NCBI RefSeq assembly: GCF_000008365.1
Contig: NC_006908.1
Span: 745,080 to 777,079, forward strand
DNA length: 32,000 nt
Reading direction: 5' to 3'
DNA from: Mycoplasma mobile 163K
GTDB lineage: Bacteria > Bacillota_I > Bacilli_A > Mycoplasmatales > Metamycoplasmataceae
Positions 734 to 16,393 of the stretch are shown in pieces. The position numbers and the translations under genes are program-made. The notes beneath the pieces are model-generated. The model saw only the letters and a program-made list of their open reading frames with translations. It did no database searches and was not told where the DNA came from. Position 1 is the stretch's first letter. The number at the start of each line of letters is the position of its first letter.

Positions 734-919
734 ATGATTAAAAAAACTCAAGAGGAATTAAAAAATTTAATGAATATTTCAAAAATTGAAGTTTACGAAA
801 TTTTACACAGTGGAAAGCAATGAGAATATAAAGTTAGTGGGGGAAATTATGGCTGAATCAAATACAACTTTAAAGAGCTTAGAAAAACTTATTTTGAGCA
901 TGAAAACTGATATAAGTAG
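734..919 (+). CDS. Hypothetical small protein, possible helix-turn-helix (61 aa under code 4)
   Basis: ATG 734, TAG 917-919, three in-frame TGA codons. MIKKTQEELKNLMNISKIEVYEILHSGKQWEYKVSGGNYGWIKYNFKELRKTYFEHENWYK. The segment NISKIEVYEILHSGK resembles an excisionase/MerR-type HTH. Overlaps the next ORF in a different frame. Confidence 0.3.
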
Positions 920-1055
920 CATTAAAGAAGATGTTAGTATTTTAAAATCAGATGTTAAATCTATTGATACTAGATTAAGTAATGTAGAAAAAGATGTTGC
1001 TTTAATAAAATCACTTCCTACAATTCAAAAAGAACTTAAAGTTAAAAATATTTAA
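849..1055 (+). CDS. Hypothetical small coiled-coil protein (68 aa)
   Basis: ATG 849 preceded by GGGGGA (SD-like), TAA stop at 1053-1055. MAESNTTLKSLEKLILSMKTDISSIKEDVSILKSDVKSIDTRLSNVEKDVALIKSLPTIQKELKVKNI has a heptad-like hydrophobic spacing. The track ORF 786..1055 uses an upstream TTG. Confidence 0.4.
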   Translation: MAESNTTLKSLEKLILSMKTDISSIKEDVSILKSDVKSIDTRLSNVEKDVALIKSLPTIQKELKVKNI

Positions 1056-1285: not shown

Positions 1286-2026
1286 CTAGTTTCTACCAGG
1301 AAATCCTGTAACTACAATAGTTTTTTCGAGTATTCTTCCGTTTTTAGAACCTATTAAGACAACACTTAATCTTCCTTCACCAAAATGCACACTACTCTGT
1401 ACATATCTTAATGAGAATTGAACTCCATTTTGAGGATTAGGAGTATTAACAATTTTATCAATACTTCATACATCATTTGATCAAGCTGGAGTTTTTCCAA
1501 AATCAGTTATACTTAGACTTGAAATTGTGTTTAATTCATTTTGAATATCTCTATCTACTGCAATATTAATTTGCTCTTGAATTTCTTCTGGACTAAGAAC
1601 TCTAAACCCATTTACAATAATTGTTTTTTCTTGAGTTAAATCACCAATAGAACCTACAAGAGTTACAACAACAAATCCACTTGTGTCACTACCACTAGCT
1701 GTTTCACTAATTTTTATAGAAAAACTTACACCATTAGAAGAAACTGGCACTTTAATAAAATCTGTAATATTTTGATTATTTACTTGTGAAGGTAAAGTAT
1801 TTTTTGCAACTTCAAAAATTTCTAAAGTATTAATTTTTTCAAGTTCATTTCCTAAAATATTTTTTTGTTGCTCAATTGTGATAATAGGATTAATTGGACC
1901 AACTGGACCTACTTCTTTAGGGGTTTTTGTTGCTACAATGCTTACTGGAACTATAATAACTGTGCTTCCTAAAACTGCTGCTGCTGTTCCTAAAAATAAA
2001 TTTGCTTTTTTCATAATAATGTACAC
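1286..2026 (-). CDS. Membrane-anchored surface protein, paralogue A (246 aa): N-terminal TM anchor, Pro-rich linker, one ~100-aa repeat module plus C-terminal module
   Basis: Track ORF 1481..2026 extended through TGA (1481-1483) to TAG at 1286-1288. N-terminus MKKANLFLGTAAAVLGSTVIIVPVSIVATK has no lipobox Cys. Modules carry TLPSxV ... NGVxF ... I(V/T)(N/D/T)GF, as I recall for the mycoplasma Lipoprotein_17-type domain. Confidence 0.8.
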
Positions 2027-2256
2027 TTTCTATATAAATAATTATATAATTACTAAAAATTTTTGCTTTTAAAATAATGTTTTTAACTATCCTTTAAAAG
2101 GATTTTAAAATTTAAGCTTATTTATATTGTCTAAATTTTAAAATTTTTATTTGTAATTAAAATAACAATAAAATTATAATTCTTTTATATTTAAATAGTT
2201 AAAATATTTATTTTTTTCTTATAAATTCACCTTTTAAGATTTGATACACTAAATAA

Positions 2257-2288
2257 AAAATTACAGCAAGAATTTTTGCTGTAATTTT
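2257..2288 (-). terminator. Rho-independent terminator downstream of paralogue B
   Basis: Stem aaaattacagcaa / ttgctgtaatttt with loop gaattt, flanked by A and T runs, about 20 nt past the stop at 2310. Confidence 0.7.
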
Positions 2289-2309
2289 TTAAATTAAGAT
2301 TTTGTGTTT

Positions 2310-3386
2310 TTAAACAGGGAATCCTGTAACTACAATAGTTTTACTAATTGTTCTTCCATTTTTAGAACCTGATAAAATAATACTAAATCTTCCTAAACCA
2401 AGATGAACACTACCATCTACATATTTTATTGAGAATTGAACTCCATTTTTACTTTGCGGAATATTAACAAGGCTTGTAGCGTTTCCTGATAAAACAGCAG
2501 TTTGTCAAGCAAGATTATTTGCAAGAGATGTTTTTTCTAAACTTGAAATTGAGTTTAATTCATTTTGAATATCTCTATCTGCTGCAATATTAATTTGTTC
2601 TTGAACTTCTTCTGGGCTAATAATTCTAAAACCATTTACAATAATTGTTTTTTCACTAGTTAAATCGCCAATAGAACCTGCAAGAGTTACAACAACAAAT
2701 CCACTTGTGTCACTACCACTAGCTGTTTCACTAATTTTTATAGAAAAACTTACACCATTAGAAGAAACTGGCACTTTGATAAAATCTGTAATATTTTGAT
2801 TATTTACTTGTGAAGGTAAAGTATTTTTTGCAACTTCAAAAGTTTCCAAAGTATTAATTTTTTCAAGTTCACTTCTTAAAATATTTTTTTGTTGTTCTTT
2901 AAGTTGAGCTCTTTCTTGCTCTGTTTGGAATCCATCAATAGTAATTTCTTTTTGAACAATAACATTTCCAATAGAACTAGTTACAATAATTACTAATTCT
3001 CCGGTAACATCATTTGCTCCATTTGGTTTTAAAGACACTTCAAAATTTACACCATTCACATTATCAATTTGAATAAAATCTTTAAGATTAGTTTCATTTA
3101 CTTCAGATGGTAAAGTATTAGGAATCTTATCTACATTAAGCATGATATTATTAGGTAAATTAGTTGTGCCAACAACTATAATACTTGGAATATTTCCTAA
3201 TTCTTTTTCTATTTGTTCTTTAATTTGTTGCTCAATTGGACTAATAGGATTAACTGGATCAACAGGACCTACTTCTTTAGGAGTTGTTTTTGTTGCTGCA
3301 ATACTAGCTGGAACTATAACAACTGTACTAACTAAAGTTGCTGCAGCCCCTGCTAAAAATAAATTTACTTTTTTCATATTTAACAC
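2310..3386 (-). CDS. Membrane-anchored surface protein, paralogue B (358 aa): two repeat modules plus C-terminal module
   Basis: Track ORF 2505..3386 extended through TGA (2505-2507) to TAA 2310-2312. SD-like agaaggtg and tataat (3400-3405, minus strand) lie upstream. Long stretches are near-identical to paralogues A and C. Confidence 0.85.
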
Positions 3387-3738
3387 CTTCTCTACTATTA
3401 TTATATCATTATTAATAAGAACTTTTTTTAATACAAGATTTTTAACAATGTTTTAAAATAGTTTTTAAATTTAGAATCTTTATACTAATAATCAAAATAT
3501 ATTTTTTGAATTAAATTATAAGAATATTTGCTTTTTGTTAAATTTATTATTTTCTTAAAATAAAATCTAAAAATTTTTATGTAATTAGAGCTACTCACAA
3601 AATTTCAATTAGTAATAATCAAGATATTTCTACTATTAGATTTACATAAAATCTTATTTAATAAGAAAAAATATATTAACTTTTTGAGTAAAAATTAAAA
3701 GTATTTTCAAGATCAAAAAAATTTGATATGTTCATTAA

Positions 3739-3768
3739 AAAATACAACAATAATTTTTGCTGTATTTT
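3739..3768 (-). terminator. Rho-independent terminator downstream of paralogue C (one stem mismatch)
   Basis: aatacaacaa / ttgctgtatt with loop taattt, then a T run. Homologous in position and sequence to the hairpin at 2257-2288. Confidence 0.6.
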
Positions 3769-3789
3769 TTAAATTAAGATTTTATGTTT

Positions 3790-5166
3790 TTAAACAGGAA
3801 ATCCTGTAATTTCAATAATTTTACTAATTGTTCTTCCGTTTTTAGAACCTATTAACTCAATTCTGAAATTTCCTAGACCAAAATGAACACTTCCATCTAC
3901 ATATCTCAATGAGAATTGAACTCCATTTTTGCTTTGTGGAATATTAACAAGGCTTGTAGCATTTCCTGATAAAACAGCAGTTTGTCAAGCAAGATTATTT
4001 GCAAGAGATGTTTTTTCTAAACTTGAAATTGAGTTTAATTCATTTTGAATATCTCTATCTGCTGCAATATTAATTTGTTCTTGAACTTCTTCTGGACTAA
4101 GAGCTCTAAACCCATTTACAATAATTGTTTTTCCTTGATTTAAATCACCAATAGAACCTACAAGAGTTACAACAACAAATCCATTTGTATCGCTACCGCT
4201 AGCTGTTTCACTAATTTTTATAGAAAAACTTACACCATTAGAAGAAACTGGCACTTTGATAAAATCTGTAATATTTTGATTATTTACTTGTGAAGGTAAA
4301 GTATTTTTTGCAACTTCAAAAATTTCTAAAGTATTAATTTTTTCAAGTTCACTTCTTAAAATGTTTTTTTGTTGTTCTTTTAATAATTGAGCTCTTTCTT
4401 GCTCTGTTTGGAATCCATCAATAGTAATTTCTTTTTGAACAATAACATTTCCAATAGAACTAGTTACAATAATTACTAATTCTCCAGTAACATCATTTGC
4501 TCCATTTGGTTTTAAAGATACTTCAAAATCTACACCATTAGAAGAAACTGGCACTTTGATAAAATCTGTAATATTTTGATTAGTTACTTCTGAAGGTAAA
4601 GTGTTTTTTGCAACTTCAAAAATTTCTAAAGTATTAATTTTTTCAAGTTCACTTTTTAAAATGTTTTCTTGTTGTTCTTTAAGTAATTGGGCTCTTTCTT
4701 GCTCTGTTTGGAATCCATCAATAGTAATTTCTTTTTGAACAATAACATTTCCAATAGAACTAGTTACAATAATTACTAATTCTCCGGTAACATCATTTGC
4801 TCCATTTGGCTTTAAAGATACTTCAAAATCTACACCATTTACATTATTAATTTGAATAAAATCTTTAAGGTTAGTTTCATTTACTTCAGATGGTAAAGTA
4901 TTAGGAAACTTATCTACATTAAGTATGATGTTATTAGGTAAATTAGTTGTACCAACAACTATAGTGCTTGGAATATTTTCTAGTTCTTTTTCTATTTGTT
5001 CTTTAATTTGTTGTTCAGTTGGATTAATAGGATTAACAGGCCCAACAGGATTAACAGGTCCTACTTCTTTAGTATTTTGGTTTGCTACAACACTAAGTGG
5101 AACTATAACAACTGTACTTGCTAAAGCTCCTGCTGTTACTCCTAAAAATAAATTTGCTTTTTTCAT
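3790..5166 (-). CDS. Membrane-anchored surface protein, paralogue C (458 aa): three repeat modules plus C-terminal module
   Basis: Track ORF 3985..5166 extended through TGA (3985-3987) to TAA 3790-3792. gagaaggtg SD and tataat upstream. Contains an internal 300-bp tandem repeat. Confidence 0.85.
4231..4839. repeat. Intragenic 300-bp (100-codon) tandem repeat, two units, inside paralogue C
   Basis: tacaccattagaagaaactggcactttgat... occurs at 4231 and 4531, and tacaccatt again at 4831. The units differ by only a few substitutions when read directly. Confidence 0.85.
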
Positions 5167-5488
5167 AATATTACACCTTCTCTAATATAATTATAGCATT
5201 ACTAAAAATTTTTTATGATTTAAAATTAGTTCTTGTTTGTTTTTAAAAATATAATATAACTTTTAAAAAACTTAGAAAATTTGATATTAATGTTTAATTT
5301 ATAGTTTGTCTTGCATGTATTTTTTCACAACAAAAACAATTAAAGTTTTTAAAAAATAGATAGCAAATTTCATCTAATTAAAATGTTAATTCATCTTAAT
5401 CTTATTTTGAATCAACTCAAATTTTAAATTTAGAGAATTAGAGAAAAAGGGACTAAAAGAATTCAAAAAAATATATAAAATTATAATT

Positions 5489-7225
5489 ATGAATCTTGAA
5501 GAAAAATATGAAAATAAAACAAAAGAAAAATTTCAAACAAAGAAAATTCAAATAAATGTACATTCTGAGGAAGAATATTTAAAAAAGCAAAAAGAATTTC
5601 TTGAAGAATTGGAACTTAATTGAGAAAAATTTGAAAAAGAGAACAAATTTCAATTTGATTATGACAACAAATATAAAGAAAAAATGAAAGATGAAAAATT
5701 AGGTTTTTATGAATTTGAGCTTAGTTTTAAAAGATCTCCATTGACAATTATTCATGCACCTTGAGGAACCGGAAAAACTTATTTTTTAGATTCTCTTGTA
5801 AAAAATTTTGTAGACAAAAAATTCGAAAATACAAAAATTGAAAGAATAATTTTTATCGATTTATGAAAATATTCTTATAGTGAATCTATAGATTTAGATA
5901 TTTCTAAGTCTTTTTACAAAAATGCTCCAATGTCTAGAAGAAAATTTAGGCAAAATGCCACAAAAGGGTTAGGATACGTTTCAAAATTCATTAATAATGC
6001 CTTGAATATTGTTGAAGCCACACCTGGTATTCCTAAACTAAACGGATTAAGTCAAGTACTAGATTTTAGTAAAATAGGTGATTATTTTTTGAAAGAAAAA
6101 GTTGTAAAACTTTTTTCTGTTGATGAAACAAGAAAATTAGTGATTCTTGACAATATTGAAAGACTAGGAGAAAATATTTGAGAAATATTTAAATTTATTT
6201 TTGAATTGCAAAGTTTAGAAAATAATATTTATCTATTACCAATGAATAAACAGTTTTTAATACACAAAAAAAATGAAAGTGGTGGAGAATATCAAATTCA
6301 AAAATTCATTGATATTTCTCCTTTTGAATTTAAACAAAACTATTTGGGTATTTTAACAAAATTTTTTCAAAGAGAAGGTAAACATTTTGAACATCTTAAA
6401 AATGACTTAAATAAGATATTAGAAATGGAAATAGAAGGACAAAAATTATCTATTAGAGAATTGGAACAAAATTTAAATTTAAACAAAGATTTATTGTTTA
6501 AGCAAGAAAGTAGATATAAATTTCTAAAAGCTTTTAACGAAACTATTTGAAATAATTGAAATTGGTTAAAAAAAATAATAAAAGAAGATTTTGAATTCAT
6601 TTTAAAAAATGAATTGGATTGAGCAAACAAAGTAGCTACAGTTAAAAATGAATACTTTTTAAATGATTTTTTTGTTTTTAATGATCACAATGATTTTTTT
6701 GCAAATTCATTTAATCGTTATTGTTTTGCAAATTCAAAAAATAATTTTTACAAAAAATTAGAAAAAGATATTTGTTCGCTTGACAATCTTAGATCTAATA
6801 ATTTCAATGAAGGGTTCAAAAAACTAGGAGAAATTTTAAATTCATATTTAGAACTATCAAATGAACAAGAAATTTCTATAAATGATTTTTTAGAAAGTAA
6901 ATGAAATGAAAATTTTAAATATGAAGAAATTATAATTAAAATCAATCATCTTACAATTTTAAAAAATAATTTCCAAGAAAAATGACAACAAAAAGATGAA
7001 GAAATTTCAAAAAGAAAATTTGAAATAGGAGAGTATTTTTTTGATGAAATTTTGAAGTATTTAAATAAATTGAAAATCCTTTTTGAAGAAAGAAATGAAA
7101 ATATTTCAAAAGAATTTGCTAATTCAAAATGAGAGAAAGACTTTTGAATAAAAAAAATTGAAGATAATAAAATAAAAGAAAAAATTACTGATAATGAGCT
7201 TTTTAGTATTTTAGAAAGTATTTAA
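5489..7225 (+). CDS. KAP-family-like P-loop NTPase (578 aa)
   Basis: Track ORFs 5930..6181 and 6206..6550 are in the same frame as ATG 5489. I translated codon by codon to TAA 7223-7225 and found only TGA interruptions. Walker A in KAP style IIHAPWGTGKTYF. Walker B-like KLVILDNIERL (compare DDLDR). Confidence 0.65.
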
Positions 7226-7321
7226 ATGTTAAAAATTAAATAAATTTAAATTATAGTTGCAATGAATTAAATTATATTAGATTCTATATATTAAAATACA
7301 TTTAATTAATGTAAAATAATA

Positions 7322-7441
7322 AAACTTTTTGAATTTTTTTCTGGAATTGGCGCAACTCATAAAGCTTTAATTAATAACAATCAAAAATTTTCTACTGTAG
7401 GAGTAAGTGAATGATTTACTGAAGCTATTATTGGCTATTAA
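7322..7441 (+). pseudogene. Remnant of a C5 DNA cytosine methyltransferase (N-terminal ~39 codons only)
   Basis: Translation KLFEFFSGIGATHKALINNNQKFSTVGVSEWFTEAIIGY* matches C5-MTase motif I (F-x-x-F-S-G-I-G-x) and the following sE-x-x motif region. TAA TAA lies immediately upstream. There is no start codon and no catalytic PC motif downstream. Confidence 0.6.
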
Positions 7442-7553
7442 CTTCATTGCCACTAAAATAATAATATAGAGGACAGTTTAAACAATCGTAAAGTAAAAAG
7501 TTCAGAGACTCTTAAAAGATCATGTTAAAAAATTTCATGGGAAACATTTAAAA

Positions 7554-8675
7554 TTATTTAATCAATAAATTATTATGAAATTTTAAATAAAATTTTGTTT
7601 CATCATTAAGTTTACTAATCGAAGGCTCATCTAATTTTAAATTATAAATTTCCAATTTATTATGAATTACTTTAGCAGAAATTAAAAATCCTTTTGAATT
7701 AAAAGATATATAGTGTTTATCAAATAGCGCATCGTGATTTGGGCATAGTAACAGACCATTGTTATAATTTCTAATTTCTTTATGTTTTTCAGATTTGCCT
7801 AATGATTTGTCTTTTACTATATTTTCAACTGATTTTATATGTGAAGCAACTAGTAATTCTTTTTCTGAAATATCGCAATATAAAATATCGCATTTTGAAG
7901 ATGCTTTTAAGAGACTATTTCTAAAATAAACTCTAATTGAATTTATATTTTGAAATTGTTTTAGTTTTAACTCTTCCATTTCATCTTCGTTATTATTTTC
8001 TTCTTCAGCTTCAAATAATTTATCAATTAATTTATCGAATTCTTCATTTTTATTATCATCAAAAAAATTTTGTGCTTCTTCTAAAAAAAATATATCTAAA
8101 TATTTAATCATGCTAGAATGAACAATATATGTGTTTTTTGTCCTGTTTAACTTTCAACTTTTATTATCTATTACTTCTTTTATATCTTTAAGAGATACCA
8201 TTCTAGAAGTGTTTTTCCTTCCTTTTGTCCTATTCTTGTAAGTTTTAATATTCGATCTTTTCACAATAAAATAAACGACATTTTTGACATCTAATTCAAT
8301 TGTTGAATCTAATTTTTTTAATAACGGAATGTATCCATTCATTACAATAAAATTTTCTTTTTCTTCAATAAACTTATTTTGTAGATATTTTCTACCAAGA
8401 GGAACTTCAATTTTTTGACTTTCTTTTCCTAATCCTCCATCATCTGAATGTTCAATAAAAATTTTATAATTTACATTTAAGAAAGAAATTGCGAAAAGTT
8501 TTGAAAATGAATTTTGAAAAATTTCTTTTTCAATTTTTGGATCTCTTTCTTTCAAAATATTAAAAAGATGATTGAAAAGTTCTTTTTCTCCTCCATATCC
8601 AAAAAAGGGGTGAACTTTATCGTCAAATAATTTCTCTATTTCAGAATTGATTATGTGATAGCGTACTTTAGACAT
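7554..8675 (-). CDS. HNH nuclease fusion protein (373 aa): unknown N-terminal domain plus C-terminal HNH_2-type domain
   Basis: Track ORFs 8154..8675 and 7554..8111 are in frame and joined by a single TGA (8154-8156), with a true TAA at 7554-7556. C-terminal motif ...SSKCDILYCDISEKELLVASHIKSV...NNGLLLCPNHDALFDKHYISF is the ASHI ... NG.LL ... H..FD pattern of HNH_2-type nucleases. Confidence 0.75.
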
Positions 8676-8802
8676 GATTATGCTCCTTTCTAATTTATAT
8701 TGTAAATTTTAATGAAGAAAATTATTTTATAACTATAAATAAAATTGTTTAATAACTTAAATGATTTTATTTATGTTAAGCTTTTTGAGAGGTTTTAACT
8801 AA

Positions 8803-10125
8803 GTGAATAATTTTAATAATGAAGACGACGATGAAAAATTAAATGAAAATTTTGTTCCTAAATCTCAAGGTCTAAAGGATTTTTTAGAACAGAAGAAGAA
8901 TTTTCAATTCGTAATTCCTATATATCAAAGAAACTACAATTGAGAAATTAGTAAACAAGTAAAAAAATTTATGGAAAGTTTTGAACATTTGTTTAAAGAA
9001 AAAAATGAAGAACATTTTTTAGGAACCCTAATTTTGATTTTAGGAAAAAAAGAGGAAATTCAAGAGTTATTTGTAATTGATGGTCAACAAAGATTAACAA
9101 CAACATTTCTTGCTTTTTTTGCAATTAGAAATCTTTTAAACGAAAATGCTAATGTTGAAAAATCTTTATTAAAAAAAATAAAAGAAGAATTGAATAAGAT
9201 TTTTTTCTCTAATAAAAAGAATCTCCTAAAAATTCATCCCGCAGTTGAGAGAGATAAGGTTTTTGAAAAAATTACTAGAAATTCTAAAAAAGAAGATTTT
9301 AACTCAGATGAAAAAACAACAAATATCTTTAAAGCATATGAATATTTCAAAAAGGAATTAAAAGGCTATATAAAAAATAATGAAGAAGAGTTGATGAAAA
9401 TTTTAAGAACTTTTAATAGAATGATTGTTGTTTCAATAGAAGTTAGAAAAAATGTAAATCAACAGAAACTTTTTGAAAGTATAAACTCAACTGGTGTTAA
9501 GCTTACAAATTTTGATTTAATAAAAAATTTTCTATTAATGAAACTTGAAACTAGAAAGGAGCAGGACCAAATATATAATGAGTATTGAAAAATATTGGAA
9601 AAAAACGTAACTATTTCGTCAGAAAAAAATCAAAGAAAATATAAATTAAACTTAAAAACTGATGAAATTGAATTAGAACATAAATTTAAAGGAAATGATT
9701 TTTTTAAATACTTTTTGTCAATTAAAGAGCATAAACATTATAGCGAAGAGAAATTTTATAATTCATTTAAAAAATGATTCGAAAATAAAGGAGAGGATTT
9801 CAATATTAAAAATGCTTTTGATGAATTAAAAAATTATTCTAATCTTTTCAACCAAATTTTTAAAAAAAGTAAAAATCCTAAAATTGAAGAAGAGTTAATA
9901 GAATATAGAAAAATGAATATTTATGCTGCTTCTCCTTTAATAATAGAAATGTTAAAATGGCATGATGATAAAGAAATATCGGCCAATTTATTTAATGATA
10001 TGTTAAAAGTTATAAATACTTATCTTGTAAGAAATGATATTTGTAATAATGGTGATAGATTAAAAAATATTTCCCAAACATTTCTTAAAATTTTAGAAGA
10101 ATTAGAAAATGTGAAAAAAATCTAA
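8803..10125 (+). CDS. DUF262 (GmrSD-like, ParB-type NTPase/nuclease) N-terminal part of a frameshifted gene
   Basis: GTG 8803 sits right after an in-frame TAA, with gagagg 12 nt upstream. Motifs FVIPIYQRNYNW and VIDGQQRLTT are the DUF262 signatures. TGAs at 8944, 9586 and 9775 read as Trp. The frame ends at TAA 10123-10125, immediately after an A7 run. Confidence 0.75.
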
Positions 10126-10163
10126 ATAATGTTTCTGGCGATAAAATTAAAATTTTACAAAAA

Positions 10164-10697
10164 TTGAAGAGTTTTTTAAATGGAAATGAAAGAATAAGTA
10201 AAAATTCTATTGCGGATATAAAATTACCTAATGATAGAGAATTAGAAACTATTATCCCGAAAATTAATGCTTATCATAAAGAAGGTAAAGTTACCAAGGT
10301 TATTTTGCAAAAAATTGAAAAAGATGTAGTTTTGAAAAGAAAAAATAAAGGTGTTTTGGATCTAATCTATATAGAATCGAAAACTTTAGAAATTGAGCAT
10401 ATATTTCCACAAAACCCACAGAAAATATCTGATACGGTCGAAAAAGAAAATGGAAATGAAAATAACCATATAAATCAAATTGGAAATTTAATATTAGTTG
10501 AATCAGAAATAAATCAAGAACTTTCAAATAATATTTTTGCAACTAAAAAGGAAACACTAAAAAAATTTAAAGAAAAAGGAAAATTATTTATCTCTAATAA
10601 TGAAATTTTAAATGAAAATGAATGAACAAAAAAACAAATTGAAAAAAGAACTAAAAATATCATAAAAAAAATAAAGAAACTTTATCCTTATTTTTAA
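10164..10697 (+). CDS. DUF1524 (His-Me finger nuclease) C-terminal part of the same frameshifted GmrSD-like gene
   Basis: This frame is open from 10089. Motifs LEIEHIFPQN ... INQIGNLILVESEINQELSN match the DUF1524 pattern (EHI.P ... GNL.L ... N). TGA at 10623 read through to TAA 10695-10697. The start given is the track TTG; the reading frame really continues from the upstream part. Confidence 0.7.
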
Positions 10698-11002
10698 AAA
10701 TTTTAAATTTCTTGATCAATGGCGAAAAATTATATTTTTATTCTCTAAAATTTAAAACTATTTTTTATTTTCTTTTGAAAAATGATTTGTATTTAAAATT
10801 GAATTTTTAAGATTTTGTCTTTTTTCAACATATATTGAATAAAGTTTGATTACTTTTCCATTTTTTGTATTCACATATTGCATAAAATTTTATTTTTTTT
10901 GGCTTGAATTAAAAAATCAATTTTATTAATATTTTTTTGTAGCTTGAAAATTTGATTTATTTGTTATATTGATTCAAAATAGAGATAATAAATTAAAATA
11001 AA

Positions 11003-12901
11003 TTACTTTTCAGGTTTAACAGTATGACTTTTTAAGTGATTAGATAAATTAATATCTTCTGCATAAACAAAAATTCCTTTTGTTCCTCTTGTTAAATTAA
11101 CAAATAACCTATTTAAAAAATAATGAAAATTAAGATTTTCTTTTTCTTTTTTTACAGAATCAGATTTACCTTTTAAAGACCAAACTTGAGATGACATTTC
11201 TCTCATTTCCAATTCGCCAATATTAACTTTCAAATTATTAGTTGTTTTGTCTCAATAAAACATTTTGGGAATGTGAACAAAAACATAATCGAATTCGACT
11301 CCTTGAACTGTATTAAAATAAGCTATATATTCACTTCCTTTTTTATCTAAATTGAAATTTTTAACAAGAGATAAATTTCTCAATTGAGTTGATATTTTTG
11401 TATGAGGACTATTTTTTTGAAATTTCTCTAATCATTCACTATTTGGATTTCATGCATATCTGTGATTTCCTATTTTTACAGATTTTATAGGCATTCCTCT
11501 TTCATCAAGTTCATCTAAATTTCATGTTTGAGTTCAAAAAGATAACATTCTAACGTTGAATTCTTCATACATGCTTTGATATTTACTATTGAATTCTTCA
11601 GATTCTAAAACTTCAAAAGAAAAATAATTCTGGATGAAAAAGTCTTGACCATTGTCTATTTTAAAAATTCAATTTTTTAATCACTCTGTGTATGTGGAAT
11701 CTCCACCATTTCTAAATTGTTCCTCCAAGTCAAAAATTTCAAAAGTAAAATTTGATTTCTTAGCTATTTGAATAATTTCTTCTCTCAAGATACCTTGTTT
11801 GTTTATAACTTGAAAGTCATCAATTAAACAAATAATAAAATTAGCATTTTTAAATAAAGTCTGATAAAAACCACCGGCTGTTATATTGCTTCTTGCTTTA
11901 TGAGCTTCATCAATAATTACAACATCATGTTTTGCGTGCATGTCAGCTCCACCTATGAATTCAACTAAATTGTTGTTTTTTAATTGTGATTTAGCTGCTG
12001 CTCTAAATTCAGGACCTGGAAGCATTAATTTAACACTTTTGTTATGATTTGACATAATATATCCAAGTAATTTAAATGCTATTACAGTTTTCCCAGAGCC
12101 TGCAGCACCTGAAATAAAAACAACATGCTTTTTTGTTTCAAATGATTTTAAAAAAGTTTCTTTTAAGGAGTAGAAAGCTAAACATTGTGAGCTAGATAAT
12201 TTGATATTTTTGAACTCTTCTTTTAAATGGGATATAAAATTTTGAGAAGGTTTGTACTCTAGTTTATCTAATTTTACTAAATCATCGTGCGAAATAGGCT
12301 TGTTAAAAATTGATTTTAAATAATCAACAAAAATATTTGAAGTGCTTGAAGTGTAAGTGGTTACGTTTTCATTAATTGATTTATATTTTATATCTTCGAG
12401 CGGATTTTTGTTTTCAAATTCAAAATTAGGTAAAAAAGCAACAGATTCTACATTAAATATTTTGTTTATATAATCATACTGATTGACTAAATCTCTTTTG
12501 TAATTTAGAGCTTCAAGTCCAGGATGCAAAGATTTTTTGTAAATTGTATAAATATTTAATAAATACGAATTTTCTATCAAAGAAATTTTGCTTCACCCTT
12601 TTAATTCTATTATTAAAATTGTCTTTCTTTCATTATTATTTCCTACGATAATTACATCAATTCTCTTTTTAGATGAAGGGACTTTGTATTCAAGCAAAAC
12701 ATATTGGCTGTTTTTATGTTCTAAGTCATTAAAATAATTAGAAACCTTTCTTAAAGTGCTTCTTCATGATTCTTTTTCCTTTTCAGAAACTGAATAACCT
12801 AATTTACTGCGCATTTCACTTTCAATTTTAATAACAATTGTTCCACTATTTTGGCTACAATCTTCTATAAAGCCTTTAATTGTATTTTCATATATAATCA
12901 T
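11003..12901 (-). CDS. DUF2075-type protein (632 aa): N-terminal PD-(D/E)xK-like nuclease module plus P-loop SF1 helicase-like ATPase
   Basis: ATG 12901 to TAA 11003-11005, hand-translated across eight TGA codons with no TAA or TAG. N-terminus LEYKVPSSKKRIDVIIVG...ILIIELKGW (E-x-K nuclease-like). Walker A ISGAAGSGKT. Walker B VVIIDEAHK. C-terminal LTRGTKGIFVY. Confidence 0.7.
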
Positions 12902-13141
12902 ATAATTTGACACATTTTACCATAAAGTGATTTTTATTTTAATAAAACAATAACTTTAAAATTAATAATTTACAAATAATCAATTATTTAATTAATATTA
13001 AAAATTTTATAATTGATAGATGAGAACAAATGGTTTGAAAAAAATAACAAAAAAGAAATATAACAAAGAACACAACGAATCATAAAAAAATTTTTCTAAA
13101 AAAAATACAAAATTCTAAAAAACTAAATTCAACATTTAAAC

Positions 13142-13318
13142 CTATTATTTTATACTATAATAAAAATGCTAATTTTCTGCTTAGGGGGCAAATATGTATC
13201 GTAAATACTCAGATGGAATAATTGAAGTAATTACAGGTCCTATGTATAGCGGTAAAATTGAAGAATTAATTAAGAGAATTAAAATTTTGCAATTTGCTAA
13301 TATTAAAACTTTAATTGT
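13142..13318. repeat. Direct repeat copy 1 (177 bp): duplicated tdk promoter, RBS and first 125 nt of tdk
   Basis: Identical to 14735-14911 except one substitution (t at 13258 versus g at 14851). The offset is exactly 1593 bp. Confidence 0.9.
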
Positions 13319-13340
13319 AAATAAAATTCTTGTAAGTTAA
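13194..13340 (+). pseudogene. Truncated thymidine kinase fragment (tdk-prime, 48 codons)
   Basis: MYRKYSDGIIEVITGPMYSGKIEELIKRIKILQFANIKTLIV then unrelated NKILVS*. The P-loop GKS is changed to GKI by the single repeat mismatch. Its TAA overlaps the stop of the convergent HNH gene within GTTAAC. Confidence 0.85.
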
Positions 13341-14665
13341 CTATTTTGTTTTCATTTTTTGAAAAAAGTTTCTTTGTGTATTTTAAGAAATGGTTTTATT
13401 GCTTCTAATTTTTTAAATGATGGTGTTTTGACATCTAAATTATAAATTTTTAGCTTTTTACTAAATTCTTTTGTAGTTATTAGCATATAATTTTCATCAA
13501 AAGAAATTATATGTTTGTCAAACAAAGCATCATGATTTGGACAAAGTAAAAAACCGTTATTAGAATTTGATATTTCATTTGATGCTTCTGTATGATTTAA
13601 ATTCTTGTCGTTTTTTATTTGATCAACAGATTTAATATGCGATGCGATTAGAATTTCTTTATCTTTAATTTTACAATACAAAATTTCGCATTTAGATGAT
13701 CTTTCTAGTAATTTTTTTCTAAAATCTAACCTCAATTTGTTTTCTTTTTCAAGTTTAATCACTGTTTGTTTTACAAATTCTGGTGCGATATTTTCGATTG
13801 AAATTTCTTCATTTTCTATTTTTTTATTTGTTTTAAGGTAGAGACTATTGATAATCTTTTTTTCTTGCTTTTGATAAGAAAGTTCTTCTTGATTTGTCAT
13901 TTTAATAAGAACACTGTTTTTAAAATTTAACAAATTATTGTACATTTTATCTATGATTTCCTCTAATGAAAAACTTTTTAAAATTAACTCACGAGAAACT
14001 TTGTAAGTTTTTATAAAATTAGCTCCAAATATATCTATATTTTTTATGTTTTTTTTCATTGGAAAATACTCATAAGAATTAAAAATGTCAAATCTTTCTT
14101 CAAATTTTTCTTCAAATCTTTCTTTTGTTTCATGTCTAAATAAGGATATGAACAATGAAAAACCTAAATTTTTTTGATATTTTGAAGACGAAATGGAAGA
14201 TTCTATCAAAAGATCTATTAAATAATTAGTGAATATGTTTCTATTTTCGACTAATTCAAAAAATTTAGAGGTAAATAAAAATGAAGAATCAGAAATGCCT
14301 TTTATTAAACCAAAGCTTATGAAAATATTTAAATATTGAGTTAAAGTTCAATTAGATGCTTCTTCATTTGATGATGGTGTAATATTATGAGAATAAACTT
14401 TGGCTCCATCTTTTAAAGATAATTCCAATTTAAGTTTATATTTTCCTGAAGGCTCACTATATTTTTTTAAATACATTTCTTCTTTATTAATTTCGATTTC
14501 TTTTATTTCCTCAAATTTTTTCAATAAAGTTTCGATTTTTATTTTTATATCTGAACCTAGTTGCCAAATTTTAGATTGCTGTTTTTGATAATTAGAATTA
14601 GAATGTAATTTTTTTTGCAAATAATAACTATTTAAAATAAATTCGATTTTTTCATATACTGACAT
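13337..14665 (-). CDS. HNH nuclease fusion protein, paralogue 2 (442 aa): unrelated N-terminal region plus HNH_2-type C-terminal domain
   Basis: Track ORFs 14348..14683 and 13352..14209 are joined in frame through TGA 14348-14350 (the 14209 TTG is an internal Leu codon). TGA 13352-13354 is read through to TAA 13337-13339. Likely start ATG 14665 after aaagagg. C-terminus ...SSKCEILYCKIKDKEILIASHIKSV...NNGFLLCPNHDALFDKHIISF aligns with 7554..8675. Confidence 0.75.
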
Positions 14666-14734
14666 ATTTTTTACCTCTTTCAAATAATTTATTCATAATA
14701 GATATTATCCCAAAAATCAAAACTACATCTAAAT

Positions 14735-14911
14735 CTATTATTTTATACTATAATAAAAATGCTAATTTTCTGCTTAGGGGGCAAATATGTATCGTAAATA
14801 CTCAGATGGAATAATTGAAGTAATTACAGGTCCTATGTATAGCGGTAAAAGTGAAGAATTAATTAAGAGAATTAAAATTTTGCAATTTGCTAATATTAAA
14901 ACTTTAATTGT
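14735..14911. repeat. Direct repeat copy 2 (177 bp), the functional tdk promoter and 5-prime end
   Basis: See copy 1. Contains tataat at 14749-14754, the SD-like agggggc, and ATG 14787. Confidence 0.9.
14749..14754 (+). promoter_or_regulatory. Putative -10 box (tataat) of tdk, duplicated at 13156-13161
   Basis: tactataat lies 33 nt upstream of ATG 14787, followed by the SD-like agggggc. No experimental support. Confidence 0.4.
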
Positions 14912-15389
14912 CAAGCAAAAATTTGACACAAGATTTTCTCATAATGAAATTGTGTCTCGTTCAGGAACTAAATTAAATACTATTGTTGCATCTAATGTTG
15001 AAGAGATTAAAAAAGTTTGGAATAATACTTATAAAGCAATTGCAATTGATGAAGTGCAATTCTTTGACAAAGATATTATTAACTATATTGACGAATTAGC
15101 CTCAAAAGGAATTAGAGTTATCATTTCAGGCTTAGACACAGATTTTGCTAGAAAACCTTTTGGTATTATGCCGGAACTTTTAGCAATAGCTGATGATGTT
15201 TTAAAACTTAAAGCTGTTTGTTTTAGTTGTAAAAATGCCGGAACTCATACTTTTAGAATAACTAATGATAAAGATCAAAAACTATTAGGAGATACTGAAT
15301 CATATCAAGCAAGATGCCGTAAATGTCATCTTGAAGGTGAAGAGCAAAAAATCCAAATGGATAATCTAAAATTAAATTTATCACTGTAA
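14787..15389 (+). CDS. tdk: Thymidine kinase
   Basis: GPMYSGKSEELI P-loop, AIDEVQFF Walker B, C-terminal Zn ribbon C-x-x-C ... C-x-x-C (CFSC...CRKC). 200 aa. Confidence 0.95.
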   Translation: MYRKYSDGIIEVITGPMYSGKSEELIKRIKILQFANIKTLIVKQKFDTRFSHNEIVSRSGTKLNTIVASNVEEIKKVWNNTYKAIAIDEVQFFDKDIINYIDELASKGIRVIISGLDTDFARKPFGIMPELLAIADDVLKLKAVCFSCKNAGTHTFRITNDKDQKLLGDTESYQARCRKCHLEGEEQKIQMDNLKLNLSL

Positions 15390-15454: not shown

Positions 15455-16393
15455 TTGAATATAAATTATAACAATAAGAAAAGTTTAGGTTATAACAAAC
15501 GAAACAATCGTAGTAATTTTCATACTGAGCGTGCTTCTAATGATTGAAGTTGGTTTTCAGATGCAATAAATAATGAGATTAGCAAAAGAAAAAAACTTAA
15601 GAAACTTATTGTTTTATCTTTAGTTTTTTGAATATTAATTATTACAATAGTTTTTAGTCTAGCAATTACTTATATAATTAGCCCTTTGGGCATTCCTGGA
15701 ACAATTGAAAATACAGGAAATGAATTTGAAACTAATAATCTAAAATTTAATATTCAATTGGGTATTTCAATATTTTTAATTACTCTTTTATTTCTTTTTT
15801 GTTTTATTGTAGTTGTTTTAAATGTTATTTCAGGTATTACAATTTTAGCTTCTGATTGAATTCAAGAAAAAGCTCAATTGTCAAAAATCTTCTATGGATT
15901 TTTAACAATTTTTGTGGCTAGTTTAATTGCAACATCTTTATTTTTAAAATTGATACCAAAATATTATCAAAGAAATTATAAAAATCCATTGGCTCAAAAT
16001 AGTGATGTTAATATTATTAAAGCAAGACAAAAAATTAAAAATTTTGCAATTTTAACAGCTTTTTTGGACACAATATCTGTATTGTTGCTTATTGTAATTG
16101 TTTTACCTTTTACTTTTTTAATTTTAAATCAAAGAATGGTATTTAGTTTTTCTACAACTACTTTTATTATTTTGGGAACAATGCTAGGAAGTTTTGTTTT
16201 AATTTCAATTATTTTAAATATTATTGTGTCTTATTGAATTTTTACAACAAAATGAAATAGTGAAAAAATCAATAAACAAAAACTATTATGAGCTTTTGTT
16301 ACTCTTTTTCTATATGGACCAATTTCAGCTTTAATTTTTATTACTTATATTCCTAAATATAATTTTTCACCATATCTAAGAAAATTAAATTAA
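15455..16393 (+). CDS. Hypothetical polytopic membrane protein (312 aa)
   Basis: TTG 15455 lies 6 nt after aggag, with tggtataat upstream. Track ORF 15878..16237 extended in frame through six TGA codons to TAA 16391-16393. Several hydrophobic helices. Confidence 0.6.

What the first reader, a model, noticed from the sequence alone, without database searches (positions are those of the whole stretch)
10089..10125. GmrSD-like (DUF262+DUF1524) gene split exactly at an A7 homopolymer: phase-variable switch, frameshift site or recent decay
The DUF262 frame (IPIYQRNYNW, DGQQRLTT) runs from 8803 and ends ...ENVKKI-TAA at 10123-10125, directly after GTG AAAAAAA TC (A7 at 10114-10120). The DUF1524 frame (EIEHIFPQN...GNLILVESEIN) is open from 10089. 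One extra A would fuse it in phase, giving GTG AAA AAA AAT CTA AAT... = VKKNLNNVSGDK... The only lesion in a gene of about 630 codons therefore sits in a slippage-prone tract. That pattern is typical of contingency loci that switch restriction or defence genes on and off in small genomes. A -1 ribosomal slip on AAA AAA would produce the same fusion.
Basis: seen in the sequence. Interest (0 to 1): 0.65.

Follow-up and report, generated by a model that had tools for sequence, protein, structure and literature searches.

The report
Frameshifted restriction gene in Mycoplasma mobile
A GmrSD-type (Type IV restriction) defence gene of Mycoplasma mobile 163K is cut in two by a one-base loss, most likely in a run of A's; this is an ordinary, recent, possibly reversible slippage mutation, not a demonstrated genetic switch.

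Summary
Read with genetic code 4, frame 8803-10125 (440 codons, GmrSD_N) stops just after A7 (10114-10120). Frame 10089-10697 carries an intact GmrSD_C nuclease domain, and one extra A gives a collinear 631-aa protein. The window matches Mycoplasma mobile 163K. Two independent raw-read assemblies show the same A7, so it is not an assembly error.

The tract is not special. This gene alone has 11 A>=7 runs and the window has 96. The tract lies 69% into the gene, inside a lineage-specific, unconserved 6-residue insertion. There is no downstream RNA structure, and the run is shorter than the ~9 reported for efficient transcriptional slippage. The downstream half has no SD-like motif at its only canonical start. 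No A8 allele exists in a 15-billion-protein collection.

Best reading: an ancestral A8 (Lys-Lys-Asn), in the longest homopolymer class here, slipped to A7 in a mismatch-repair-less lineage. This left a young pseudogene or "OFF" allele with no second lesion. Reversion is mechanistically plausible (M. hominis vaa switches A8/A7 at 1e-3 to 1e-4), but nothing shows selection for switching. Frameshifted restriction genes at poly(A) tracts are already described in mycoplasmas. Interest is low.

The parts
8787..8792 (+). SD-like GAGAGG 10 nt upstream of the GTG start of the gene
   Evidence: Read directly. Comparable G-rich motifs precede most genes in the window.
8803..10125 (+). N-terminal reading frame, 440 codons plus TAA: DUF262/GmrSD_N domain (YQRNYNW, DGQQR motifs) plus most of the central helical region. 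It ends ...ELENVKKI*.
   Evidence: This exact 440-aa product is in public collections and on two Logan contigs.
10089..10122 (+). Interval in which both frames are open. The frameshift lesion must lie here.
   Evidence: Stop TAA at 10086-10088 in the C frame and TAA at 10123-10125 in the N frame.
10093..10110 (+). 9-nt tandem near-duplication TTAGAAGAA/TTAGAAAAT (LEE/LEN). It forms part of a 6-residue insertion specific to this lineage, which also holds the A-run.
   Evidence: Read directly. The insertion is seen as a 6-column gap in all 16 homologues.
10114..10120 (+). A7 homopolymer, the inferred site of an A8 to A7 slippage deletion (ancestral GTG AAA AAA AAT = V K K N).
   Evidence: It is identical in Logan contig L001.
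10119..10697 (+). C-terminal part in the -1 frame: the last helices of the central region plus the DUF1524/GmrSD_C His-Me nuclease domain (EIEHIFPQ, GNLILV, N571, N576). It has no second lesion.
10164..10166 (+). TTG, the first canonical start codon in the C frame (would give 177 aa). It has no SD-like motif upstream.
   Evidence: Gene callers annotate this 177-aa ORF.

Best explanation
This is a horizontally acquired, stand-alone GmrSD-family (DUF262 + DUF1524) Type IV restriction gene in a defence-gene cluster of Mycoplasma mobile 163K. It has been inactivated by a single-base replication-slippage deletion. The ancestral tract was most likely A8 (Val-Lys-Lys-Asn), which belongs to the longest homopolymer class in this genome. 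It lost one A, so translation from GTG 8803 now stops at 10123 and yields a 440-aa protein with the DUF262 domain but no nuclease. The nuclease half is probably not made in useful amounts, because its only canonical start (TTG 10164) lacks an SD-like motif.

The mutation is fixed in the sequenced lineage. It is young, or the gene is still intermittently under selection, because no second lesion has accumulated. It is not programmed. It is one slip among many equally slippery tracts in a lineage that has no MutS/MutL.

Since the tract can slip back, the allele is in principle revertible. The line between 'young pseudogene' and 'OFF phase' is open until reversion is measured.

Shown: the frames, the domains, collinearity, intact motifs, A7 in three data sets, and the tract statistics. 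Inferred: the A8 ancestor, slippage as the cause, poor expression of the C half, and recency.
For: Gene and lesion. The fusion matches full-length GmrSD-type profiles in one stretch. It is collinear with 16 homologues and keeps all invariant residues on both sides. The fold of a homologue matches the single-chain enzymes DndI, SspE and BrxU, and PDB profile hits span the junction.

Not an assembly artefact. The source genome matches M. mobile 163K by size (777,079 bp, and PMC2697654). Logan contig L001 from SRR29904084 is 100% identical over 8031 bp including A7. The SRR29904083 contig has the same 440 + 177 aa gene calls.

No A8 allele. The exact 631-aa and 575-aa fusion products are absent from the ~15-billion-protein collection, while both pieces are present.

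The tract is ordinary. This gene has 11 A>=7 runs, the window has 96 A/T>=7 runs, and nothing in 32 kb exceeds 8. The other A8 runs in the coding strand of the neighbouring defence genes are all in frame. The run density is explained by Lys content and AAA codon bias (852 AAA vs 98 AAG; the shuffle expects 7.8 against 11 observed).

Position. The tract lies at 69% of the gene, inside a 6-residue insertion absent from all homologues.

No recoding signals. The downstream RNA fold has z = +0.59 and there is no SD-like motif before TTG 10164.

Background. A group of 16 genomes represented by M. hyopneumoniae has no MutS or MutL homologue (PMC2190696 Table 2). M. agalactiae hsdR is truncated by an indel in a mid-gene poly(A) tract (PMC9465063).
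Against: The C-terminal 191 codons have no stop and no further indel, even though the gene has 13 other A/T>=7 runs. This also fits continued selection, as in a switch that is periodically ON or leaky expression.

Defence-cluster genes, unlike housekeeping genes, do not avoid A/T>=7 runs (32 observed vs 27.8 expected, against 27 vs 34.6 with P = 0.012). The GmrSD N part has the highest run density in the window (8.3 per kb; observed 11 vs 7.8 expected, P = 0.05). That is weakly compatible with tolerated or favoured mutability.

A8/A7 tracts are real phase switches in M. hominis vaa, and an A7 tract is one in M. fermentans p78 (PMC2831843).

Only consensus sequences of one strain are available. 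There are no read-level data and no orthologues.
Confidence: 0.68

Rival explanations
1. Contingency (phase-variable) locus. The A7/A8 tract is a selected, reversible ON/OFF switch for a Type IV restriction enzyme. It lets subpopulations of M. mobile alternate between restricting modified incoming DNA and tolerating it. The sequenced lineage happens to be OFF.
For: Mycoplasmas switch genes through A8/A7 coding tracts at 1e-3 to <1e-4 (vaa), and p78 uses an A7 tract (PMC2831843). Authors have suggested ON/OFF switching for a poly(A)-frameshifted hsdR in M. agalactiae (PMC9465063). The gene carries no second lesion and all catalytic residues are intact. Defence genes here do not avoid slippery runs, whereas housekeeping genes do.
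Against: The tract is no longer than the genomic background (96 A/T>=7 in 32 kb). It is one of 14 such runs in the same gene, so no single site is singled out. It is mid-gene (69%), whereas phase-variable homopolymers are 5'-biased (PMC2831843). It lies in an unconserved lineage-specific insertion. All three data sets show A7 and no A8 product is on record. Run density is explained by amino-acid and codon composition.
Confidence: 0.15
2. Expression-level rescue. The DNA is stably A7, but a fraction of full-length enzyme is made by -1 ribosomal slippage of tRNA-Lys on A AAA AAA, or by RNA-polymerase slippage that adds an A to the transcript.
For: A -1 shift, or one extra A in the mRNA, gives exactly the collinear product. 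A-runs are known slippery sites for both ribosomes and RNA polymerases. Endosymbionts rescue frameshifted genes in this way (PMC5009743). The intact C half is compatible with residual expression.
Against: The in-phase heptamer is G AAA AAA, not a canonical X XXY YYZ. There is no downstream stimulatory structure (MFE -9 kcal/mol, z = +0.59, 146 of 200 shuffles fold as well). There is no SD-like element upstream. Efficient transcriptional slippage is reported for runs of about 9 or more A/T and for 'long poly(A) runs' (PMC5009743), and this run is 7. The site is not conserved in any homologue. Any rescue would be unprogrammed background, probably around a percent or less (my estimate).
Confidence: 0.08
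3. Functional two-subunit enzyme. The 440-aa DUF262 protein and a separately initiated 177-aa DUF1524 protein assemble into an active nuclease, like the separately encoded GmrS and GmrD of E. coli CT596 (from my own knowledge, not checked here).
For: Gene callers annotate both ORFs. The C ORF contains the whole GmrSD_C domain. The stop and TTG 10164 are only 39 nt apart, so re-initiation is conceivable.
Against: TTG 10164 has no SD-like motif, unlike most genes in the window. The break is not at a domain boundary. It falls at the end of a helix of the central helical region, and two further helices of that region would be stranded on the nuclease piece or lost. All 120 best homologues other than the window's own N piece cover 96-99% of the fusion, so they are single chains, as are the solved relatives.
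Confidence: 0.06
4. Sequencing or assembly error. The true genome has A8 and an intact gene.
For: Homopolymer length errors are the commonest assembly errors, and the gene is otherwise perfect.
Against: Two assemblies made by a different pipeline from separate raw read sets (SRR29904084, SRR29904083) give the same A7 or the same split gene calls. L001 is 100% identical to the window over 8031 bp.
Confidence: 0.02

Closest known systems
GmrSD-family Type IV (modification-dependent or modification-sensing) nucleases: GmrSD, BrxU (PDB 7p9k), SspE (6jiv/7drs), DndI (9jfl)
   Same: It has the same two-domain architecture: an N-terminal DUF262 with the (I/V)PxYQRxYxW and DGQQR motifs, a central helical region, and a C-terminal DUF1524 His-Me finger (EH..PQ, GN, N, N). 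Sequence profiles and the fold of a 32%-identical homologue match these proteins.
   Different: Here the gene is split by a frameshift, so no single-chain enzyme is encoded. There are no BREX, Ssp or Dnd partner genes nearby. The protein lacks the C-terminal DUF4357 extension that many of its closest homologues carry. The closest homologues are only 30-35% identical and come from Firmicutes-type sources.
Poly(A)-tract frameshift in the restriction subunit gene hsdR of Mycoplasma agalactiae (PMC9465063)
   Same: [quoted passage not shown] The authors interpret it as erosion that might also allow ON/OFF variation.
   Different: It involves a different enzyme class (Type I HsdR against Type IV GmrSD-like) and a two-nucleotide insertion there. 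Strain comparisons exist for M. agalactiae but not for M. mobile.
Coding-region poly(A) phase switches of mycoplasma surface proteins (M. hominis vaa A8/A7; M. fermentans p78 A7 tract), as summarised in PMC2831843
   Same: The tract lengths are the same (A8 ON, A7 OFF), as is the slippage mechanism in organisms without mismatch repair.
   Different: Those tracts sit at the 5' end of surface-antigen genes, and switching was measured directly. Here the tract is at 69% of a cytoplasmic defence gene and no length variation has been seen.
Transcriptional-slippage rescue of frameshifted genes at long poly(A) runs in Buchnera and Blochmannia (reviewed in PMC5009743)
   Same: It also concerns an AT-rich reduced genome with a frameshift in a poly(A) run of an otherwise intact gene.
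   Different: The rescued genes there have long runs (bacterial slippage is reported on runs of 9 A/T). This run is 7 and is not conserved.

Membership tests
GmrSD family (DUF262 + DUF1524 Type IV restriction enzymes) | N-terminal DUF262/GmrSD_N domain with the QR..W and DGQQR motifs | tested here: met
   Pfam PF03235 E 5e-35, residues 24-245. Y41 Q42 R43 W47 and D93 G94 Q95 Q96 R97 fall in invariant alignment columns.
GmrSD family (DUF262 + DUF1524 Type IV restriction enzymes) | C-terminal DUF1524/GmrSD_C His-Me finger nuclease domain with catalytic His and Asn residues | tested here: met
   Pfam PF07510 E 9e-20, residues 476-622 of the fusion. E532 H533 P536 Q537 G561 N562 N571 N576 are invariant and present.
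GmrSD family (DUF262 + DUF1524 Type IV restriction enzymes) | Both domains on one polypeptide, as in BrxU, SspE, DndI and all close homologues | tested here: not met
   In the sequence as it stands the frames are separated by a -1 shift at 10089-10122, giving 440 aa plus an untethered C frame. The ancestral gene met this feature.
GmrSD family (DUF262 + DUF1524 Type IV restriction enzymes) | Overall fold like solved family members | tested here: met
   AlphaFold2 model of homologue P0026 (pLDDT 81) matches DndI 9jfl (E 5e-17, TM 0.55), SspE and BrxU 7p9k. This was tested on a 32%-identical homologue, not on the M. mobile protein itself.
GmrSD family (DUF262 + DUF1524 Type IV restriction enzymes) | NTP-dependent cleavage of modified DNA | not testable with these tools
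   Biochemical property.
Simple-sequence contingency locus (phase-variable gene) | Repeat tract whose length change toggles the reading frame | tested here: met
   A7 gives 440 aa and A8 gives 631 aa.
Simple-sequence contingency locus (phase-variable gene) | Tract longer or more mutable than the genomic background | tested here: not met
   The window has 96 A/T>=7 runs and this gene has 14. The density is explained by a synonymous-shuffle null.
Simple-sequence contingency locus (phase-variable gene) | Tract-length polymorphism within or between populations | tested here: inconclusive
   Three consensus data sets of one strain all show A7, and no A8 product is on record. No read-level data and no other strains are available.
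Simple-sequence contingency locus (phase-variable gene) | Tract near the 5' end and/or conserved among orthologues | tested here: not met
   The tract lies at 69% of the gene, in a 6-residue insertion absent from all 16 aligned homologues. No close orthologues exist in the databases searched.
Programmed -1 ribosomal frameshift site | In-phase slippery heptamer X XXY YYZ | tested here: not met
   The zero-frame context is GTG AAA AAA ATC, so the heptamer is G AAA AAA (the first position is not A). Only P-site slippage of a single tRNA-Lys re-pairs perfectly.
Programmed -1 ribosomal frameshift site | Downstream stimulatory hairpin or pseudoknot, or an upstream SD-like stimulator | tested here: not met
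   Folding 10105-10220 gives -9 kcal/mol against a shuffle mean of -10.5, z = +0.59. No G-rich motif lies upstream.
Transcriptional-slippage (RNA polymerase realignment) site | Homopolymer of about 9 or more A/T | tested here: not met
   The run is 7. The threshold is taken from PMC5009743.

The most novel reading that the evidence does not exclude
The A7/A8 tract is a working reversible switch of a Type IV (GmrSD-like) restriction enzyme in a minimal bacterium. The OFF state is not null: it produces a stable nuclease-less DUF262 protein with a function of its own, for example sensing or binding modified DNA. To my knowledge, this would be the first phase-variable GmrSD-family system.
Probability: 0.1. 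Interest if true: 0.45.

Novelty: new member of a known kind. Interest (0 to 1): 0.2.

Why it matters
It matters little beyond annotation. It shows that the two adjacent M. mobile ORFs (440 aa and 177 aa) are halves of one GmrSD-type Type IV restriction gene. They should be annotated as a frameshifted gene, not as two proteins.

It is also a clean example of how restriction and defence genes erode, or toggle, at short poly(A) runs in Mollicutes, which lack mismatch repair.

If reversion were shown, it would extend phase variation from Type I/III systems and methyltransferases to a Type IV enzyme. That could be relevant to the transformability of M. mobile, a model organism for gliding motility.

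Tried and rejected
Searches that found nothing or could not be run:
- Orthologue search in one-genome-per-species contigs, with the fusion protein and with a DNA pattern allowing 5-11 bases at the tract. Both found nothing, so no comparison with related strains or species was possible.
- phmmer of the fusion against PDB found nothing. The profile search succeeded.
- The M. mobile genome and proteome paper (Jaffe et al. 2004, PMC509254) is not held, so its proteomic evidence for either half could not be checked.
- No paper mentions SRR29904083 or SRR29904084, so the origin of those runs is unknown.
- I tried to use the intact flanking genes as exact-match anchors to find contigs with another allele. 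Cluster look-ups showed no extra contigs.

Ideas considered and rejected:
- A multi-gene known defence system (BREX, Ssp, Dnd). The neighbours give only HNH / Type II-like and SLFN-helicase hits.
- An RNA element at the site. Rfam and tRNA scans of the window are empty.
- A larger lesion than one base. The adjacent 9-nt tandem near-duplication is in frame and cannot cause the shift.

Full report
OBSERVATION

The window is AT-rich (24.4% GC) and uses genetic code 4. With table 4 the ORF map shows a 440-codon frame from GTG 8803 to TAA 10123-10125. A second frame, shifted by -1, is open from 10089 to 10697. The first frame ends GTG AAA AAA ATC TAA, with A7 at 10114-10120. Inserting one A gives a 631-aa product (...ELENVKKNLNNVSGDK...). 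Only tract lengths A5 or A8 restore the frame.

The use of code 4 is confirmed directly: four in-frame TGA codons align with invariant Trp columns of the family (W47, W262, W325, W608).

One qualification applies. The lesion can only be localised to the interval where both frames are open (10089-10122). The A7 is the only run longer than 4 in that interval, so it is by far the likeliest site, but this is an inference.

ONE GENE, ONE LESION

The hypothetical fusion has Pfam GmrSD_N (residues 24-245, E 5e-35) and GmrSD_C (476-622, E 9e-20). It matches a full-length GmrSD-type PADLOC model in a single stretch covering positions 6-541 of 543 (E 6e-69).

Aligned with 16 full-length homologues (31-35% identity), it is collinear across the junction. 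It keeps every invariant residue on both sides, including the DGQQR motif and the nuclease residues E532-H533, P536-Q537, G561-N562, N571 and N576.

A profile of this alignment hits solved DUF262/SspE structures, with one aligned stretch spanning the junction. An AlphaFold2 model of the homologue P0026 (pLDDT 81) matches DndI (9jfl, E 5e-17), SspE and BrxU, the 'GmrSD-family Type IV restriction enzyme'.

The ancestral gene was therefore a single-chain GmrSD-family enzyme, and the frameshift is its only lesion.

The junction maps to the C-terminal end of a helix in the central helical region, about 30 residues before the nuclease domain. It lies inside a 6-residue insertion that none of the homologues has. 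Part of that insertion is a 9-nt tandem near-duplication (10093-10110).

SOURCE, AND THE ASSEMBLY-ERROR QUESTION

The exact proteins of the window occur on an NCBI contig of 777,079 bp. That is the published size of Mycoplasma mobile 163K, AE017308 (PMC2697654). PMC3575796 gives 777 kb and 635 CDS.

Two contigs assembled by the Logan project from separate raw read sets carry the same gene pair of 440 aa plus 177 aa. These are SRR29904084 (8031 bp) and SRR29904083 (5722 bp). The first is 100% identical to window 5141-13171, A7 included. An assembly error is therefore very unlikely.

The exact A8 fusion product (631 aa, or 575 aa from the second ATG) is absent from a collection of about 15 billion proteins, while both pieces are present. 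The flanking genes occur on no further contigs and have no relatives at 90% identity or above. No other strain or allele is available for comparison. The two scans of one-genome-per-species contigs also found nothing.

IS THE TRACT SPECIAL?

It is not.
- The gene alone has 11 runs of A>=7 (14 A/T>=7 when both pieces are counted). The window has 96 A/T>=7 runs and 17 of length 8. Nothing in 32 kb exceeds 8.
- Lys is encoded by AAA 852 times against 98 AAG, so any Lys-Lys followed by an A-initial codon makes such a run.
- A synonymous-codon shuffle predicts 7.8 runs in the N part against 11 observed (P = 0.05).
- By my arithmetic, a random 34-nt interval in this gene would touch a >=7 run about 30% of the time.
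- The tract lies at 69% of the gene. Homopolymers associated with reversible inactivation are 5'-biased (PMC2831843).
- The other A8 runs in the coding strand of the neighbouring defence genes are all in frame. The inferred ancestral A8 was one of several equally slippery sites, and one of them slipped.

There is one pattern in the other direction. Pooled housekeeping genes in the window avoid A/T>=7 runs (27 observed against 34.6 expected, P = 0.012). The six defence-cluster ORFs do not (32 against 27.8). This fits relaxed selection against mutability in dispensable genes. It is only weakly suggestive of favoured mutability.

RECODING

- Ribosomal frameshifting. The in-phase context is G AAA AAA ATC, not a canonical X XXY YYZ. 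The 116 nt from the tract onward fold no better than shuffles (-9 kcal/mol, z = +0.59). No SD-like stimulator lies upstream.
- Transcriptional slippage. Efficient slippage is documented for runs of about 9 A/T and for the long poly(A) runs of endosymbionts (PMC5009743). This run is 7.
- Independent translation of the C half. It would have to start at TTG 10164, which lacks the G-rich SD-like motif found before most genes of the window, including this gene's own GTG start.

Low-level, unprogrammed rescue cannot be excluded, but nothing marks the site as programmed.

MECHANISM AND AGE

A group of 16 genomes represented by M. hyopneumoniae has no MutS or MutL homologue (PMC2190696). Poly(A) tracts in mycoplasmas are known indel hotspots. 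In M. agalactiae, hsdR is truncated by an indel in a mid-gene poly(A) run, and the authors note that this could give ON/OFF variation (PMC9465063).

Measured rates for comparable tracts, all from PMC2831843:
- M. hominis vaa: 1e-3 to <1e-4 (A8 ON, A7 OFF).
- C. coli flhA: 3e-4 for T8 to T7, and 7e-6 for T7 to T8.

The simplest history is therefore an A8 to A7 slip that became fixed in the 163K lineage.

The C half (191 codons) has acquired no stop. About 5% of its possible point substitutions would create one. P(no stop) is 0.24 at 5% neutral divergence and 0.06 at 10%. None of the other 13 runs has slipped either. So either the lesion is young or the gene is still intermittently selected.

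Reversion to A8 is mechanistically plausible. 'Young pseudogene' and 'OFF allele' cannot be separated without read-level or experimental data.

CONTEXT

The gene sits in a cluster of defence-type genes between three Lipoprotein_17 surface-protein genes and tdk. The cluster holds:
- a P-loop protein (5489-7225)
- an HNH_2 protein (7554-8675, minus strand)
- the split GmrSD gene
- a NERD/SLFN-g3 helicase (11003-12901, minus strand)
- a second HNH_2 paralogue (13337-14665, minus strand)

No BREX, Ssp or Dnd partners are present. The closest homologues of the GmrSD gene are 30-35% identical proteins from Firmicutes-type sources, which is consistent with horizontal acquisition.

VERDICT

A selected phase switch (about 0.15), leaky recoding (about 0.08) and a functional two-piece enzyme (about 0.06) remain possible but lack positive evidence. 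Assembly error is essentially excluded.

The phenomenon, a restriction gene frameshifted at a short poly(A) run in a mycoplasma, is already known, so this is a new instance of a known kind and interest is low. The practical outcome is an annotation correction: one frameshifted GmrSD-type gene, not two proteins. The report also gives a concrete read-level and proteomic test that would settle whether the allele switches.

Noticed in passing
window 13119-13326 and 14712-14919: There is a direct repeat of about 208 nt (95% overall; a core of about 178 nt has a single mismatch). It duplicates the tdk upstream region plus the first ~41 codons. The upstream copy is a 48-codon tdk fragment (13194-13340, GKS changed to GKI). 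The repeats flank the second HNH_2 gene (13337-14665, minus strand), which looks like a recent insertion or duplication event at tdk.
   Followed up: partly
window 5489-14665: A cluster of defence-type genes: a P-loop protein (weak AAA_22 hit), two paralogous HNH_2 proteins with near-identical C-terminal motifs, the split GmrSD gene, and a NERD + SLFN-g3 helicase protein. None matches a complete known multi-gene system in PADLOC. All are orphans at 90% identity.
   Followed up: partly
whole window (coding regions): Housekeeping genes have significantly fewer A/T>=7 runs than synonymous shuffles predict (27 vs 34.6, P = 0.012; yidC 3 vs 7.8, RNase J 1 vs 3.6). Defence-cluster genes show no avoidance (32 vs 27.8). 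No homopolymer in 32 kb exceeds 8. This suggests selection against slippery runs in essential genes of this organism, which lacks mismatch repair.
   Followed up: partly
window 1286-5166 (minus strand): Three tandem paralogous lipoprotein genes (242, 355 and 458 aa) with 2-4 Lipoprotein_17 repeats and long internal near-identical repeats. They are probably members of the M. mobile Mvsp variable surface protein family, though that name was not verified here. The Logan contig L001 starts at window position 5141, inside the 5' end of the third gene (3790-5166).
   Followed up: no
window 10093-10110: A 9-nt tandem near-duplication TTAGAAGAA/TTAGAAAAT lies immediately upstream of the A7. Together with the A-run it forms a 6-residue insertion absent from all homologues, so this spot has a history of local slippage.
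   Followed up: partly
window 734-1055 (plus strand): Two small overlapping ORFs in different frames (734-919, 61 aa; 849-1055, 68 aa) with a G5 run at 839-843 in the overlap. This could be another frameshifted small gene or two genuine small genes.
   Followed up: no
window 15455-16393 (plus strand): A ~312-aa multi-pass membrane protein appears to start at a TTG preceded by AGGAG. ATG-based calling finds only its last 85 codons. This is an example of non-ATG starts that simple callers miss here.
   Followed up: no
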